DNA from: a virus
Lineage: Duplodnaviria; Heunggongvirae; Uroviricota; Caudoviricetes
Virus record (IMG/VR): IMGVR_UViG_3300029619_000123
Length of the DNA stretch: 5,541 nucleotides
Strand: one strand, 5' to 3'
Of the stretch, positions 424-5,541 are shown in pieces. The notes below the pieces were generated by a model. It was given only the letters and a program-made list of their open reading frames with translations. It did no database searches and was not told where the DNA came from. The position numbers and the translations under genes were made by a program. Every line of letters starts with the position of its first letter. The stretch's first letter is position 1.

Positions 424-558
424 TCAGGCGGCTGCACCCGCCGCGCTCTGGAATTTGCGCCCCGCCGCGCTTATCAGGCTCTTACCAGCAAACGCCCCTT
501 TGTTGGGGTGTCGCCAGTACGTGTTCACGCTGGGCGGGAAAGGCAGGATCAGCTTCAT
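424..558 (-). pseudogene. RusA-like Holliday-junction resolvase N-terminal remnant (44-aa ORF, truncated relative to ~120-aa family)
   Basis: rc 558->424 translates MKLILPFPPSVNTYWRHPNKGAFAGKSLISAAGRKFQSAAGAAA*. The LPFPPSVNTYWRH stretch resembles the RusA N-terminus (ITLPWPPSNNRYYRH, recalled from memory). ATG overlaps the upstream gene stop as ATGA; SD-like GAGGGG upstream. The stop falls only about 20 nt before the KilA-N start, so the C-terminal two thirds of a RusA are absent. Confidence 0.4.
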
Positions 559-881
559 ACTTTCAGGCCCCTCTCATGTAACCAGTGGGCTGCACGCAGT
601 CTGGCGTTTTCCTCACCGGCAAGCAGTGCGCGGATAATCCCGGCTGCCTCGCTGTCGTCGTCCTTCACTGTGGTATGAAGCGTGATACCCCGGGCCACGC
701 CACGCTTTATCGTGATGACGCCTTTTTTCTCCAGTGCGCGAAGATGCTCCACCGCTGCATTCACCGAACGGTATCCCAGCATGGCTGCCACCTCCTGATT
801 GGTTGGCGGGAAACCACGTTCTTTCTGATAAGAAATCAGCATATCCAGCACCTGCTGCTGGCATTGAGTTAACGTCGTCAT
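555..881 (-). CDS. LexA N-terminal DNA-binding-domain-like protein (108 aa) lacking an S24 peptidase domain
   Basis: From ATG at 881: MTTLTQCQQQVLDMLISYQKERGFPPTNQEVAAMLGYRSVNAAVEHLRALEKKGVITIKRGVARGITL... aligns along its length with the LexA winged-helix domain ([58 protein letters not shown]..., from memory), followed by a ~40-aa tail with no GDSM/KR protease motifs. ATG overlaps the upstream stop as TAATG. The track start at 914 is a GTG; ATG at 881 preferred. Confidence 0.75.
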   Translation of the reverse strand: MTTLTQCQQQVLDMLISYQKERGFPPTNQEVAAMLGYRSVNAAVEHLRALEKKGVITIKRGVARGITLHTTVKDDDSEAAGIIRALLAGEENARLRAAHWLHERGLKV

Positions 882-1369
882 TAAGCCCACACGTAATTCC
901 CTGACAGATACCACTCATCACCCGATACAGCGCGCTTGCTGCTTTTCCGTAAGCCCCGCTCACGGCGCGCCAGAAAATTGTTTCGTTCTGACTGGGAGTG
1001 GCTTTCACGGAATGCCGCCATCCACACGGTTGCAGCACGACGGTATAAGCCCCTGGACTCCAGTTCTTCAGCCTGGCGGGTCAGGCACAAAATTACCCGG
1101 GGATCGTTAGTGCCGACATAGAAATTGCGCACAGGTCTGGTTTCACGAACTGGTTGTGGTTCCGGCTCCTGCGCTCTCTCAGTCAGGCGCGGGAAATGTC
1201 TGCGTGTATTTCCTTCACAACGGTGAGCCACACGCCCACTCTGACGTAACTTGCTTGCTGACTGCAGAACGCGCTGCCGTGAGTAACCTGCAAAAGCATC
1301 TGCAATGTCTCCGGAAGTACACCCCGGATGGGCTTCAATGAATTTCTGAACTTCATTCAAAAGACTCAT
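881..1369 (-). CDS. PerC-family transcriptional regulator-like protein with an N-terminal extension (162 aa)
   Basis: ATG at 1369 with AGGGGG SD about 6 nt upstream. C-terminal half contains AEELESRGLYRRAATVWMAAF, matching the PerC/Pch signature (LE..GLWRRAA..W, from memory). The N-terminal ~60 aa (MSLLNEVQKFIEAHPGCTSGDIADAFAGYSRQRVLQSASKLRQSGRV) looks like a separate small domain. Confidence 0.65.
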   Translation of the reverse strand: MSLLNEVQKFIEAHPGCTSGDIADAFAGYSRQRVLQSASKLRQSGRVAHRCEGNTRRHFPRLTERAQEPEPQPVRETRPVRNFYVGTNDPRVILCLTRQAEELESRGLYRRAATVWMAAFRESHSQSERNNFLARRERGLRKSSKRAVSGDEWYLSGNYVWA

Positions 1370-2190: not shown

Positions 2191-2423
2191 GCTGCACCTC
2201 CGAGATGCTTCATGTTTTTTCCGGAGCAAAAGGCTATAAGCGGCATACTGATGCGGTAATTACGGCCCAGCGGTTCACAAATCACCTTCTGACATTCACG
2301 GTCAACCAGGCTAACACGTAGAACATGCCCTGCAGGCGTGGTGTACCACTGCCCAACTGTAGGAATTGATGTTTTTTTACGCTGAAGCAAACGGCAAATA
2401 TTGAGGATCAACGGATTAAGCAT
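2187..2423 (-). CDS. Hypothetical small protein (78 aa), no family recognised
   Basis: ATG at 2423 with GGAGG SD about 9 nt upstream. Start overlaps the 278-aa ORF stop by 8 nt; its TGA overlaps the replication gene ATG (ATGA). Translation: MLNPLILNICRLLQRKKTSIPTVGQWYTTPAGHVLRVSLVDRECQKVICEPLGRNYRISMPLIAFCSGKNMKHLGGAA. Confidence 0.55.
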   Translation of the reverse strand: MLNPLILNICRLLQRKKTSIPTVGQWYTTPAGHVLRVSLVDRECQKVICEPLGRNYRISMPLIAFCSGKNMKHLGGAA

Positions 2424-3252
2424 GACGATGCCCTCCGCTGATATTCAGGAGACGGTGAATATGAAAATTAGCCTTATCCGCCAGACGAATACGTTCAGCC
2501 TGCAAGTTAAGAAGGGTTTCTACCAAAACCTGATGCGCCTGCGGATCCGAAAGAGTTACCTTGCGCAGAGCACGTAGTGCAGTTGTTACATAACTGAGTT
2601 TATGTAAGTCTTCATCATTCAGACGAGTGAGGGCTGGGACAGTAGCCATGATGGCAGCCTCCGATAACAGTGAATTACCTTCACCACCGGAAACGCCAAT
2701 TTCGCTGGTGGTGAACTGAACGGGGTTGGCGTAACCGGCGTTATCGGAAACCGGCGCACCTTTCGGTGCCCCCGTCCAGCCCACCATAATTTGGGTGTGC
2801 ACAGACACAGACGATAAAAAAGACGCTGGCGCGTCATATATCGCCGATAACATTTCCAGGACGCCAATCCCGTCACCCGCTTTATAAGGTGCCTGAACAG
2901 TGTAACGTCCCGGAATGGCAGAATCAATGTGCTGGTGGTCCTTCACACTCAACAAAATCACGCCTGAATTTCCACAAAGGACTAAAGCACTCATGCGGGT
3001 AGTCTTTGCGAAGATAGATAACGCGCTGTGTTTCTGGTTCCCAACGAATAACATGGACATAAAGCCCTCTTCCGTCACGAAACCAGCGGTTAAGTTCCCG
3101 CACAACTCGCCCCCCACAGTCAGGTAAAGTTCTCTGTGGTTACTTACAGCCAGGTGATTTGGTAATCTGCATTCATGCCGTAACAACAGGTGTTCAGCGA
3201 CACTGACCACCAGCTGTTGCGACAAACGGTTATTTGCCGTTAAACTGTTCAT
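2416..3252 (-). CDS. Hypothetical protein (278 aa), no family recognised; accessory gene in early operon
   Basis: Longest ORF in the region, same strand as neighbours. ATG at 3252 overlaps the upstream gene stop (ATGA); GGAG SD about 10 nt upstream. No Walker A, HNH, DPPY or other motif I can recognise by eye. Confidence 0.7.
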   Translation of the reverse strand: MNSLTANNRLSQQLVVSVAEHLLLRHECRLPNHLAVSNHRELYLTVGGELCGNLTAGFVTEEGFMSMLFVGNQKHSALSIFAKTTRMSALVLCGNSGVILLSVKDHQHIDSAIPGRYTVQAPYKAGDGIGVLEMLSAIYDAPASFLSSVSVHTQIMVGWTGAPKGAPVSDNAGYANPVQFTTSEIGVSGGEGNSLLSEAAIMATVPALTRLNDEDLHKLSYVTTALRALRKVTLSDPQAHQVLVETLLNLQAERIRLADKANFHIHRLLNISGGHRHA

Positions 3253-4044: not shown

Positions 4045-4134
4045 ACAATATGTACCTCCAGTATACATATTACATGATTGAAATGAACCTTCAAGGTACT
4101 TGTACCTTATCGGTACAAAGGTTTTAATTTCGTT
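4045..4134. promoter_or_regulatory. Divergent cro/cI intergenic control region with operator-like palindromes and candidate PR / PRM promoters
   Basis: 16-bp palindrome AAGGTACttGTACCTT at 4093-4108 with perfect 7-bp arms. Second inverted repeat ATATGTA-n9-TACATAT at 4048-4070. Further GGTAC half-site at 4112-4116. Candidate PR on minus strand: -35 TTGAAG (rc of 4089-4094), 16-bp spacer, -10 TAATAT (rc of 4067-4072). Candidate PRM -10 TAATTT at 4126-4131, just upstream of the cI ATG with no SD, suggesting a leaderless cI mRNA as in lambda. Confidence 0.6.
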
Positions 4135-4809
4135 ATGAAAACAATCCATGACATCCGGCGGTCTAACGCCAGAAAACTGAGAGATGGTGTTGGCGGAAAT
4201 TCATCCTTTGCCACCATGATTGATCGCGAGCCAACCCAAACCAGCAGGTTTATGGGGGATGGCGCTACTAAAAATATCGGTGACAGCATGGCACGGCACA
4301 TCGAAAAATGTTTCGACCTGCCTGTCGGATGGCTTGATCAAGAACACCAGACAACGAACATCACAAAAAAACCTGATGTTTCAATCACTAACAAACAAAT
4401 AACGTTAGTCCCTGTCATATCATGGGTACAGGCCGGAGCATGGAAAGAAGTTGGCTATTCTGAGGTTGATTTGAGCACAGCAGAAACGTATCCCTGCCCT
4501 GTACCCTGTGGCGAAATGACTTATATCTTGCGGGTGATTGGTGATTCAATGATTGATGAGTACCGCCCTGGAGACATGATTTTTGTTGATCCCGAAGTCC
4601 CTGCCTGCCACGGTGACGACGTTATTGCATTGATGCACGATACAGGCGAAACCACCTTCAAGCGATTGATAGAAGATGGAACACAGCGTTATCTCAAAGC
4701 ATTAAACCCAAACTGGCCTGAGCCTTACATTAAGATTAACGGTAATTGCTCTATAATTGGTACAGTGATTTTCTCGGGAAAACCAAGAAGATACACAATA
4801 AAGGCCTAA
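4135..4809 (+). CDS. CI-like prophage repressor with C-terminal LexA/S24 peptidase autocleavage domain (224 aa)
   Basis: S24 hallmarks all present: Ala-Gly cleavage site (VQAGAW), catalytic Ser motif (VIGDSMID), catalytic Lys (TTFKRL). N-terminal region ends with a ...LPVGWLD segment typical of repressor DNA-binding domains. Divergent from cro-like gene. Confidence 0.9.
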   Translation: MKTIHDIRRSNARKLRDGVGGNSSFATMIDREPTQTSRFMGDGATKNIGDSMARHIEKCFDLPVGWLDQEHQTTNITKKPDVSITNKQITLVPVISWVQAGAWKEVGYSEVDLSTAETYPCPVPCGEMTYILRVIGDSMIDEYRPGDMIFVDPEVPACHGDDVIALMHDTGETTFKRLIEDGTQRYLKALNPNWPEPYIKINGNCSIIGTVIFSGKPRRYTIKA

Positions 4810-4848: not shown

Positions 4849-4876
4849 TTGACAATGTACCTATGAGATACATAAT
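4849..4876 (+). promoter_or_regulatory. Candidate PL-like sigma70 promoter with operator half-site in the spacer
   Basis: -35 TTGACA at 4849-4854, 16-bp spacer, -10 CATAAT at 4871-4876. The spacer contains TGTACCT (4856-4862), the same heptamer found twice in the cro/cI intergenic region (4051-4057, 4102-4108). Confidence 0.5.
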
Positions 4877-5294
4877 GTATCCAAAAGAAACATGAGGCAG
4901 GCAAGATTCAAACAAAATTTGGTTGTAACACGGCGTATGGCACATGCGTCGTTAGCGGTCTGGGGACGTTAAAGGGGACAATCCACTCCTTGCTAGGGCA
5001 AACAAACCAGGTAGCCGGAATGTGCAAGTCAATGATGATGCTGATAAGACGCCTAACCAGCGTGGCGATCCGGTTTGACGCCTGGGAAGAGACCAGGGTG
5101 CAACGATGAGGGCATTTATGGAGCCGCGACAAAGTGTGGTGCCGTAACTGGCTAAGTGCTCTCAGCGTTGTGGTCATCCGCGAAATGGCGCGGCGGTAAG
5201 TATGGCTGGGTTACTCTTTCCCCGTTGAGGACACCGGATTGTCAGGTTGACCATACGCCTGAGTGACAACCCCACCACAACAGCCACTGCTTTG

Positions 5295-5340
5295 GCGGTA
5301 CCAGTTTGTACACTTGCTTCCGGCTGGTACCGCTCTTTTT
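5295..5340 (+). terminator. Terminator-like hairpin with GGTACC-containing arms followed by a T-tract; overlaps a boxA-like CGCTCTTTTTA
   Basis: GCGGTACCAG (5295-5304) and CTGGTACCGC (5324-5333) form a perfect 10-bp inverted repeat around a 19-nt loop, followed by TCTTTTT (5334-5340). The loop is long for a canonical intrinsic terminator. The arms carry the GGTACC operator-like motif. Confidence 0.4.
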
Positions 5341-5341
5341 A

Positions 5342-5428
5342 CAAAACAGAGAAGAGCATCACCGGACGACGGGCTCATAACCCAATCCATCCGGGCGGCT
5401 GCCACCGCAGGTGTTCTTCTCTGTTTTG
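5342..5428. other. Long imperfect hairpin (~87 nt) in the 5' leader of the right-end gene
   Basis: caaaacagagaag (5342-5354) is the exact reverse complement of cttctctgttttg (5416-5428), 13 bp. This is extended by cacc (5360-5363) pairing ggtg (5410-5413). The enclosed ~46-nt loop is GC-rich. Confidence 0.35.
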
Positions 5429-5477
5429 TGGAGAAACCAACCGACCTTGCAGGGTCGATATGATGAGGAGCAGCAAA

Positions 5478-5541
5478 ATGGCTAGCGAACGCAGTACTGA
5501 TGTGCAGGCATTTATCGGGGAGCTGGACGGCGGCGTATTTG
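5478..5541 (+). CDS. Hypothetical protein, N-terminal 21 aa only (MASERSTDVQAFIGELDGGVF...); continues past window end
   Basis: ATG at 5478 preceded by GAGGAG SD (5465-5470) at 7-nt spacing; open to the window end. In-frame ATGs at 5460 and 5463 are alternatives with weaker SD. Too short to assign a family. Confidence 0.5.
   Translation, partial: MASERSTDVQAFIGELDGGVF

What the first reader, a model, noticed from the sequence alone, without database searches (positions are those of the whole stretch)
555..881. Phage-encoded LexA DNA-binding domain without the self-cleavage domain: candidate uncleavable SOS-box binder
The first ~70 residues align position-by-position with the LexA N-terminal domain (QQ.V.D, G.PPT, LG.RS.NAA.EHL.AL..KGVI, RGI.L), but the protein ends after a ~40-residue tail with no S24 Ser/Lys catalytic motifs. 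Such a protein could occupy LexA boxes without responding to RecA, so it might decouple some SOS-controlled promoters (host or prophage, such as an antirepressor) from DNA damage. Its start overlaps the PerC-like gene stop (TAATG) and its stop overlaps the next ORF start (ATGA), so it is co-expressed with the early operon. I am not aware of a characterised member of this architecture in this context.
Basis: partly seen in the sequence, partly recalled or inferred. Interest (0 to 1): 0.65.

Follow-up and report, generated by a model that had tools for sequence, protein, structure and literature searches.

The report
Prophage LexA look-alike without cleavage domain
A prophage gene found in about half of E. 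coli genomes encodes only the DNA-binding head of the SOS repressor LexA plus a short helical tail, so it probably sits on LexA operators without responding to DNA damage; nobody appears to have tested this.

Summary
Minus strand 881..555 encodes a 108-aa protein. Residues 1-68 are a LexA winged helix-turn-helix: Pfam PF01726 E=3e-19, 51% identity to E. coli LexA without gaps, model rmsd 0.9 Å to the LexA-DNA crystal structure. There is no S24 peptidase domain. Both gene overlaps (TAATG, ATGA) are real. LexA's base-contacting residues are kept (S39, N41, A42, E45; E44 is V). The 35-residue tail is a conserved two-helix hairpin under purifying selection, most likely a dimerisation element. Its 'AG', which aligns with LexA's cleavage site, is not conserved in relatives. 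At 42-49% identity the gene keeps its place, directly or almost directly upstream of rusA in the lambdoid nin region. Neighbourhoods of the gene carry about 40 times more canonical SOS boxes than control lambdoid nin regions, but this window has none. The best reading is a RecA-insensitive LexA surrogate, made from pR after induction, that re-occupies SOS boxes on phage and host DNA. This is inferred, not shown. The architecture has a characterised precedent, GIL01 gp6, which arose independently and activates a late promoter. The family is already catalogued (PHROG 362, SfV orf42) and often mis-annotated as 'LexA repressor'. I found no functional study.

The parts
555..881 (-). CDS of the LexA-DBD-only protein (108 aa plus TGA stop)
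   Evidence: ORF list and translation; PF01726 E=3.4e-19; PHROG 362 E=3.5e-58 over the full length; dN/dS 0.10
678..881 (-). Residues 1-68: LexA-type winged helix-turn-helix (predicted H6-22, H28-35, H40-52, strands 56-58 and 66-68)
726..767 (-). Residues 39-52, the recognition helix SVNAAVEHLRALEK (LexA has [14 protein letters not shown])
   Evidence: Alignment to LexA. LexA's DNA-contacting residues are Ser39, Asn41, Ala42, Glu44 and Glu45 (PMC3091678); S39, N41, A42 and E45 are identical here and E44 is V. In the family alignment S39 is invariant and N41 and H46 are at least 90% conserved
660..677 (-). Residues 69-74: a variable, low-confidence linker that plays the part of LexA's hinge
   Evidence: pLDDT below 50 for residues 71-75; variable and gapped in alignment A1
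558..659 (-). Residues 75-108: conserved two-helix hairpin (H75-88, H93-103), the candidate dimerisation element
   Evidence: pLDDT 86-89. A97 and L101 are invariant, and positions 82, 83, 86, 87 and 100 are always hydrophobic across relatives of 40-96% identity. dN/dS 0.20. No structural match to LexA
879..883 (-). TAATG: stop of the PerC-like gene overlapping the start codon
   Evidence: Sequence read directly
555..558 (-). ATGA: start of the RusA remnant overlapping the stop codon
   Evidence: Sequence read directly. The same 4-bp overlap with rusA occurs in relatives of 44-49% identity and in mEp390. In the 42%-identity lineage a 67-aa ORF lies between the two genes
881..1369 (-). Upstream gene in the same operon: PerC-family (yfdN-like) regulator, 162 aa
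   Evidence: PF06069 E=6.8e-8; PHROG 1324; RefSeq annotation of the identical prophage
424..558 (-). Downstream gene: RusA resolvase remnant (44 aa), left by an in-frame 255-bp deletion
   Evidence: PHROG 34 E=6.7e-14. Comparison with Ec1119 RusA (129 aa) puts the deletion between imperfect 13-bp repeats GCTGCAC(C/A)CGCCG
4067..4094 (-). Candidate pR (TTGAAG, 16 nt, TATTAC read on the minus strand; 7 of 12 to consensus) upstream of the cro-like gene. It is the presumed source of the transcript that reaches the gene. Found by eye only.
   Evidence: Read from the sequence. It is below the threshold of the promoter scan. The simple consensus scan listed no minus-strand promoter-like or terminator-like site between the isrK terminator (2835..2822) and position 423, and all genes from 2423 to 424 abut or overlap
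4135..4809 (+). cI-like (ymfK-type) repressor with an S24 peptidase domain, the prophage's RecA-sensitive switch
   Evidence: PF00717 E=1.5e-26; annotated ymfK in identical prophages

Best explanation
The gene encodes a RecA-insensitive surrogate of LexA. The protein has the LexA-type winged HTH with LexA's own base-reading residues, a flexible linker, and a C-terminal two-helix hairpin. The hairpin replaces the S24 domain and is inferred to act as the dimerisation element. The gene lies in the nin region of a lambdoid prophage, translationally coupled between a PerC-like gene and rusA. It is therefore inferred to be made from the early rightward (pR) transcript once the cI-like repressor is gone, or after infection. 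It would then bind CTGT-N8-ACAG SOS boxes. Because it has no cleavage site or Ser/Lys dyad and lacks the C-terminal ...VAA end that cleavage exposes on the LexA NTD (taken as the ClpX signal from my own knowledge of Neher et al. 2003), it would stay bound while host LexA is being destroyed. The expected effect is re-repression of LexA-controlled genes during lytic growth. Targets would include phage-borne boxes (dinI-like promoters, a late-region DNA methylase, a site inside some cI genes, a KilA-N gene) and probably the host SOS regulon and LexA-controlled elements of co-resident prophages. Shown here: the fold, residue conservation, operon position, purifying selection, synteny, and association with SOS boxes in related phages. 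Inferred: dimerisation, DNA specificity, timing of expression, and physiological role.
For: (2) Specificity residues. LexA helix-III contacts are S39, N41, A42, E44 and E45 (PMC3091678). Here they read S, N, A, V, E. S39 is invariant and N41 and H46 are at least 90% conserved in relatives down to 40% identity. In GIL01 gp6, which binds a different site, this helix has diverged to SHKTAHRYLMQLE.
(3) The wing residues R64, G65 and I66 are invariant. The wing is held to fix half-site spacing in LexA (PMC8565304).
(4) A LexA DBD alone can repress. The LexA NTD retains SOS-box binding and repression and must be removed by ClpXP (PMC10584840).
(5) The tail is a conserved amphipathic hairpin with dN/dS 0.20.
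(6) SOS boxes cluster around the gene. In 80 viral contigs with the gene (1.33 Mb) there are 48 boxes scoring at least 19, against 0.2 in shuffles. In 80 control lambdoid rusA loci without the gene (1.14 Mb) there is one. The boxes lie in at least three different modules. Of 25 contigs carrying the methylase box, 21 carry the gene upstream, one of them only as a 36-aa partial match. The box inside cI recurs next to a 49%-identity homologue with different codons.
(7) Complete phages with the gene carry strong boxes: 2H10 (dinI-like), SfV, mEp460 (four boxes) and mEp390.
Against: No biochemical or genetic data exist for any member. The window has no LexA box that scores like a real one; the only exact CTGT-N8-ACAG, at 3134-3149, scores 7.0 against a minimum of 12.2 for known boxes. 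The 17.8 kb of the identical Ec1119 prophage also has none. The box enrichment compares two sets of closely related contigs, so lineage linkage could produce much of it. The loci of one diverged lineage (L003-L005) have no box within 6 kb. Dimerisation through the tail is not shown, because only a monomer could be modelled and pTM is 0.55. E44V and a different dimer geometry could change specificity or spacing. The PWM was built from 20 SOS boxes recalled from memory.
Confidence: 0.45

Rival explanations
1. It is a phage-specific regulator with a retargeted site, like GIL01 gp6. The captured LexA DBD would recognise a phage operator other than the SOS box and activate or repress a phage promoter, for example to time late or nin-region genes, with no effect on the host SOS regulon.
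For: gp6 sets the precedent: a phage-encoded truncated LexA homologue that binds GaCACAnnTGTGaC and activates late promoter P3. The protein has E44V in the recognition helix, and some relatives change positions 42-45 (P0088, P0182, P0201). The window has no SOS box. The new tail could impose a different half-site arrangement.
Against: The base-contacting residues are much more LexA-like than in gp6. No candidate non-LexA palindrome travels with the gene, which has no intergenic DNA on either side, and its upstream neighbour varies among PerC, Dam, a cytosine methylase and a replication protein. Canonical SOS boxes, not another motif, are what is enriched nearby.
Confidence: 0.25
2. It is a partner of RusA rather than a transcription factor. 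The wHTH protein would act with the Holliday-junction resolvase encoded immediately downstream, for example by targeting or restraining it on DNA.
For: The gene lies directly upstream of rusA, usually with a 4-bp overlap, in lineages of 44-96% identity. In the 42%-identity lineage a 67-aa ORF lies between them. That is long-term linkage for a mosaic genome region.
Against: In this window rusA has lost 85 of its 129 codons while the LexA-like gene is intact and identical to that of the functional phage 2H10. The control rusA loci (DLP12 type) all lack the gene, so RusA does not need it. Conservation of LexA's base-reading residues is hard to explain for a structure-specific role. Overlapping genes with no intergenic DNA also resist recombinational separation, which would explain the linkage on its own.
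Confidence: 0.08
3. It is a decoy for the SOS proteolysis machinery. The hinge-like segment LLAGE (residues 86-90), which aligns with LexA's VAAGE cleavage site, would be cut in trans or would compete for RecA* or the LexA active site.
For: phmmer extends the alignment through LexA residue 86 and places AG88-89 on Ala84-Gly85.
Against: That part of the alignment has low posterior support. AG is replaced by ER, RK, GG, DD, CS, EE, DT or EL in relatives that keep the rest of the tail. The segment is predicted to be helical with high confidence, not the strand-loop of LexA's cleavage region.
Confidence: 0.03

Closest known systems
E. coli LexA N-terminal domain (residues 1-84, the autocleavage product; PDB 1lea, 3jso)
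   Same: Same fold and 51% identity over residues 1-68 without gaps. Base-contacting residues S39, N41, A42 and E45 are identical, as is the RGI wing motif. The free LexA NTD is reported to retain SOS-box binding and repression (PMC10584840).
   Different: It is encoded as a separate phage gene. It has E44V. It carries a conserved 35-residue helical hairpin in place of the hinge and S24 domain. Its C-terminus is ...RGLKV, not the ...VAA end that cleavage exposes on the LexA NTD (my own knowledge of Neher et al. 2003, cited). It should therefore be stable and possibly a constitutive dimer.
Phage GIL01 gp6 (Bacillus thuringiensis tectivirus), a truncated LexA homologue
   Same: It is phage-encoded, has a LexA DNA-binding domain without the catalytic domain, and is expressed among early genes after SOS induction (PMC6182141).
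   Different: There is no detectable pairwise similarity by BLASTP. gp6 derives from Bacillus LexA and this protein from gammaproteobacterial LexA. gp6 is 66 aa with no tail. Its recognition helix has diverged (K38) and it binds GaCACAnnTGTGaC to activate late promoter P3. The protein here keeps LexA's recognition residues.
Non-cleavable LexA mutants (Ind-, such as S119A and G85D) and SOS dampers carried by mobile elements (DinI homologues, GIL01 gp7)
   Same: The predicted outcome is the same: SOS-box occupancy or LexA activity that does not yield to RecA*. Phages carrying this gene often also carry a LexA-controlled dinI homologue.
   Different: Ind- mutants are laboratory alleles of full-length LexA. 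DinI acts on RecA and gp7 acts on LexA, not on DNA. This would be a natural DNA-binding replacement for LexA.
wHTH repressors with C-terminal helical dimerisation modules (BlaI/MecI, MarR/MepR, MntR/DtxR)
   Different: The matches are weak, with rmsd 6-11 Å over the whole length, and there is no sequence relationship. The resemblance is a lead for how the tail might dimerise, not evidence of membership.

Membership tests
LexA repressor proper (NCBIfam TIGR00498 equivalog; the PGAP name 'LexA repressor' given to this gene) | N-terminal LexA-type winged HTH (PF01726) | tested here: met
   68.8 bits, E=3.4e-19, full profile; rmsd 0.9 Å to 3jso
LexA repressor proper (NCBIfam TIGR00498 equivalog; the PGAP name 'LexA repressor' given to this gene) | C-terminal S24 peptidase domain with the Ser119/Lys156 dyad | tested here: not met
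   No PF00717 match; the protein ends at residue 108; TIGR00498 aligns only to profile positions 1-91 of 203
LexA repressor proper (NCBIfam TIGR00498 equivalog; the PGAP name 'LexA repressor' given to this gene) | Conserved Ala-Gly scissile bond in the hinge | tested here: not met
   An AG at 88-89 aligns with A84-G85, but it is not conserved in relatives and lies in a predicted helix
LexA repressor proper (NCBIfam TIGR00498 equivalog; the PGAP name 'LexA repressor' given to this gene) | Score above the curated equivalog cutoff | tested here: not met
   67.6 bits against a cutoff of 110.95
LexA repressor proper (NCBIfam TIGR00498 equivalog; the PGAP name 'LexA repressor' given to this gene) | Binds CTGT-N8-ACAG SOS boxes and represses the SOS regulon | not testable with these tools
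   Indirect evidence only: conserved contact residues and SOS-box enrichment near the gene
PHROG 362 / SfV orf42 family (LexA-DBD plus helical tail, lambdoid nin region) | Full-length match including the tail | tested here: met
   PHROG 362 E=3.5e-58, residues 1-108 on profile 1-106; 93.5-100% identity to genes in SfV, SfII, SfIV, mEp460, cdtI, Stx2 phages and 2H10
PHROG 362 / SfV orf42 family (LexA-DBD plus helical tail, lambdoid nin region) | Position between the replication genes and rusA, upstream of Q | tested here: met
   Window order. The same order is seen in 2H10, SfV, mEp460, mEp390, Ec1119 and in metagenomic relatives of 42-49% identity
GIL01 gp6-type late-gene activators | Phage-encoded LexA DBD lacking the catalytic domain | tested here: met
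GIL01 gp6-type late-gene activators | Sequence relatedness to gp6, with the recognition helix carrying Lys38 | tested here: not met
   No BLASTP alignment at E<=100; the helix reads SVNAAVEHL here and SHKTAHRYL in gp6
GIL01 gp6-type late-gene activators | Binds a site overlapping the -35 of the late promoter and activates it | not testable with these tools
I did not examine the Q-to-lysis interval for a gp6-like site. The strong PWM box found there in SfV and mEp460 lies at the start of the late-region methylase gene

The most novel reading that the evidence does not exclude
Induced or infecting lambdoid phages in roughly half of E. coli genomes would deploy an uncleavable, ClpXP-resistant LexA mimic. 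The mimic would switch the host SOS regulon and all LexA-gated elements back off while RecA* is still active. It would turn LexA-controlled phage genes (dinI, a late methylase, a KilA-N gene, a site inside cI) into a timed pulse. It would also silence SOS mutagenesis, colicins, and LexA-dependent antirepressors of competing prophages, including in Stx-phage lysogens.
Probability: 0.25. Interest if true: 0.75.

Novelty: new variant of a known kind. Interest (0 to 1): 0.5.

Why it matters
LexA cleavage is treated as the single gate of the SOS response, which drives mutagenesis, persistence, prophage induction and Shiga-toxin release. A natural LexA surrogate that cannot be cleaved would add a phage-controlled off-switch to that circuit. 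DNA covering this gene and its two neighbours matches 2683 of 5426 complete E. coli genomes, and the gene itself occurs in Stx2a, Stx2c and Stx2k phages and in Shigella serotype-converting phages. It could explain strain differences in SOS output and in competition between prophages. It also matters for annotation: PGAP labels many copies 'LexA repressor', which they are not. The hypothesis can be tested cheaply with a lexA(Def) complementation assay and gel shifts.

Tried and rejected
(1) Cleavage-site remnant. The LLAGE/VAAGE alignment looked like a retained scissile bond. I rejected it because AG is not conserved in relatives and the segment is helical.
(2) LexA boxes in the window. Four matches to CTGT-N8-ACAG with up to one mismatch, against 2.3 expected. 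The only exact one (3134-3149, upstream of the isrK/C4 RNAs) scores 7.0 on an SOS-box PWM whose known boxes score at least 12.2. I treat it as chance.
(3) An internal promoter for expression in the lysogen. The SfV record annotates a dam promoter in the 3' end of the PerC-like gene, but its hexamers are TTGCGC/TACGGA and the first is TGGCGC in the window. The promoter scan finds nothing. There is no support.
(4) Homology to gp6: none detectable.
(5) Defence-system membership. PADLOC gives only an 18-bit CARF-HTH match, which is not meaningful.
(7) Literature. Seven of the ten full-text searches looked for this protein family. They found no functional study of the enterobacterial family, only catalogue entries. 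The LexA-DNA structure paper PMC2921665 is not held.
(8) Association of the near-consensus box TACTGTTTTTAYATACAGTA with the gene. Only about 19 of 118 contigs carry the gene, and orientation and coverage are ambiguous, so this is inconclusive.
(9) A homodimer or DNA-complex model could not be made; the structure tool folds single chains only.

Full report
THE OBSERVATION
The gene lies on the minus strand, from the ATG at 881 to the TGA at 557..555, and encodes 108 residues. Pfam LexA_DNA_bind covers residues 1-65 end to end at 68.8 bits, E=3.4e-19. No S24 peptidase match was reported, although the neighbouring cI-like gene scores 92.8 bits for S24 in the same call. NCBIfam's lexA equivalog aligns only to its first 91 of 203 positions and stays below its cutoff, 67.6 against 110.95 bits. 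BLASTP against E. coli LexA gives 35/68 identities with no gap. The best PDB sequence match is the LexA DNA-binding domain 1lea. The start shares a base with the stop of the PerC-like gene (TAATG), and the stop overlaps the next start (ATGA).

STRUCTURE

THE FAMILY
An exhaustive HMMER search found 4691 cluster representatives at E<=0.001. Among them is a set of proteins of about 105-135 residues that share 40-55% identity and keep the tail. In the alignment S39, R64, G65, I66, A97 and L101 are invariant, and N41 and H46 are nearly so. Tail positions 82, 83, 86, 87, 100 and 101 are always hydrophobic. Among 85 distinct close alleles, dN/dS is 0.04 for the domain and 0.20 for the tail. The tail is therefore a selected structural element. 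It forms an amphipathic hairpin too small to be stable alone, so I infer that it dimerises. The 'AG' that phmmer aligns with LexA's Ala84-Gly85 is not conserved and lies in a predicted helix, so it is not a cleavage site.

DNA SPECIFICITY (INFERRED)
LexA's helix-III contact residues are Ser39, Asn41, Ala42, Glu44 and Glu45 (PMC3091678). The phage protein has S, N, A, V, E at these positions. By contrast GIL01 gp6, a phage LexA homologue known to bind a different palindrome, has a diverged helix. The wing, which is held to fix half-site spacing in LexA (PMC8565304), keeps its RGI motif. The free LexA N-terminal domain is reported to retain SOS-box binding and repression, which is why cells remove it with ClpXP (PMC10584840). 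The phage protein ends in ...RGLKV. From my own knowledge of Neher et al. 2003, the ClpX signal is the ...VAA end that cleavage exposes on the LexA NTD, and the phage protein has no such end.

GENOMIC CONTEXT
The window is the immunity-to-nin segment of a lambdoid prophage. On the plus strand is a ymfK-type cI with an S24 domain. On the minus strand, in order, are cro-like, cII-like, an Ash-family ORF, a small ORF, a DnaD/HTH_36 replication gene, the PerC-like gene, the LexA-like gene, a RusA remnant and a KilA-N gene. From 2423 to 424 the genes abut or overlap, and the consensus scan lists no minus-strand promoter or terminator between the isrK terminator and position 423. I infer expression from pR during lytic growth. 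The identical protein is encoded by phage 2H10. DNA covering the gene and its two neighbours matches 2683 of 5426 complete E. coli genomes, and at least 576 IMG/VR contigs encode a relative. Relatives at 42-49% identity keep the order replication genes, LexA-like gene, rusA, antirepressor-like or DUF968 gene, Q. In most of them the gene overlaps rusA by 4 bp; in the 42%-identity lineage a 67-aa ORF lies between them.

SOS BOXES
I built a PWM from 20 E. coli SOS boxes recalled from memory, so it is a heuristic; the training scores range from 12.2 to 26.9. The window has nothing above 9, and its one exact CTGT-N8-ACAG scores 7.0. Complete phages that carry the gene do have strong boxes:
- 2H10 has two boxes over the promoter of a dinI homologue.
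- mEp390 has one box next to dinI.
- SfV has one box at codons 3-9 of a late-region DNA methylase.
- mEp460 has four: two at dinI, one at the methylase, and one inside its cI gene.

Across 80 viral contigs with the gene (1.33 Mb) there are 48 boxes scoring at least 19, against 0.2 in shuffles. Across 80 control lambdoid rusA loci of the DLP12 type (1.14 Mb), none of which has the gene, there is one such box. The boxes fall into three classes:
- the start of the late-region methylase;
- the linker of mEp460-type cI genes;
- the rusA/KilA-N intergenic region.

Of 25 contigs carrying the methylase box with enough upstream sequence, 21 carry the gene, one of them only as a 36-aa partial match. The box inside cI recurs next to a 49%-identity homologue, where CTGT/ACAG is kept while the codons between them differ. 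A 42%-identity homologue has a strong box about 40 bp upstream of a 124-aa ORF call that precedes the gene; I read this position as a possible promoter for that operon. These counts are not phylogenetically independent, so they are suggestive rather than conclusive.

MECHANISM
The best reading is a RecA-insensitive LexA surrogate. In the lysogen, host LexA holds the box-bearing genes. After DNA damage, LexA and cI are cleaved, pR fires, and the phage protein accumulates and re-occupies SOS boxes on phage and host DNA regardless of RecA*. I put this at 0.45. The main rival is a gp6-like retargeted regulator (0.25). A RusA-partner role (0.08) is weakened for two reasons: rusA is deleted here while the LexA-like gene is intact, and the DLP12-type rusA loci all lack the gene. 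A proteolysis-decoy role (0.03) is rejected on conservation grounds.

COMPARISON WITH WHAT IS KNOWN
The protein is not a LexA repressor. The S24 domain, the scissile bond and the equivalog cutoff all fail, so the PGAP name is an over-annotation. It is a member of PHROG 362, the family of SfV orf42. A survey of Stx phages lists a pham 237 with the same Pfam domain (PF01726), which I take to be this family, without testing its function (PMC8136144). The architecture has one characterised precedent, GIL01 gp6 (PMC6182141). gp6 arose independently, shows no detectable similarity, has no tail, and activates a late promoter. Seven full-text searches aimed at this family found no experimental work on the enterobacterial members.

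VERDICT
The feature is real and was correctly described. I rate it a new variant of a known kind, with interest 0.5.

Noticed in passing
window 2704-2791 (-) and 2816-2892 (-): Rfam finds full-length matches to C4 antisense RNA (RF01695, 82.8 bits) and isrK Hfq-binding RNA (RF01394, 55.4 bits), with a terminator at 2835..2822. Both lie inside the 278-aa 'Phage_ASH' ORF (3252..2419), and the Pfam Ash match (aa 117-210) overlaps them. This may be a P1 immI-like or Gifsy isrK-like RNA module in the pR operon, and the Ash protein family may partly be a translation of RNA genes.
   Followed up: partly
window 424-558 (-): The rusA gene carries an in-frame 255-bp deletion, leaving 44 of 129 codons, between imperfect 13-bp direct repeats GCTGCAC(C/A)CGCCG. 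All ten closest E. coli genomes listed (99.8-99.9% identical elsewhere) match in two or three pieces, consistent with their holding the full gene; this was verified only for Ec1119.
   Followed up: yes
L011 (mEp460) 31970-31989; L002 836-855; L013 6017-6036: A near-consensus SOS box lies inside the coding sequence of mEp460-type cI repressors, in the linker between the HTH and S24 domains. It is conserved at the DNA level while the encoded residues differ (TVCKNS and TVFINS). Its function is unknown; it could be a LexA roadblock or a LexA-controlled internal or antisense promoter.
   Followed up: partly
L010 (SfV) 34170-34189; L011 (mEp460) 41021-41040; 22 of 80 loci L013-L092: A strong SOS box, TACTGTAAAAATAAACAGTG, occupies codons 3-9 of a DNA methyltransferase gene located between Q and the lysis genes. 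Variants keep CTG...CAG. Of 25 contigs with this box, 21 also carry the LexA-like gene 4-6 kb upstream, one of them only as a 36-aa partial match.
   Followed up: partly
L065 974-993 (and 4 similar loci): In some relatives an SOS box lies in the 160-bp spacer between rusA and the following KilA-N-type gene. This suggests that the KilA-N gene is LexA-controlled there. In the window the spacer is only 22 bp and has no box.
   Followed up: partly
L001 (phage 2H10) 26202-26511: A dinI homologue (82 aa) has two tandem SOS boxes overlapping a TTGACA promoter, in the phage that encodes the identical LexA-like protein. mEp460 and mEp390 also carry dinI, and mEp390 carries a HumD/UmuD-like gene.
   Followed up: partly
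window 4849-5477 (+): A strong promoter-like site (TTGACA, 16 nt, CATAAT; 11 of 12) follows the cI terminator. After it comes about 600 nt with no convincing ORF before the yfdP-like gene at 5478. There is no Rfam match. It could hold a nut- or put-type antitermination element.
   Followed up: no
proteins P0128, P0131, P0137 and others with two matched stretches: Some database proteins carry two LexA DNA-binding domains in tandem in one chain with no S24 domain. This is another S24-free LexA-DBD architecture, possibly a covalent pseudo-dimer.
   Followed up: no
window 881-1369 (-): The PerC-like (yfdN-type) protein has weak MarR/BilQ-like wHTH matches in residues 6-69 ahead of its PerC domain (residues 98-151). 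It may therefore bind DNA itself.
   Followed up: no
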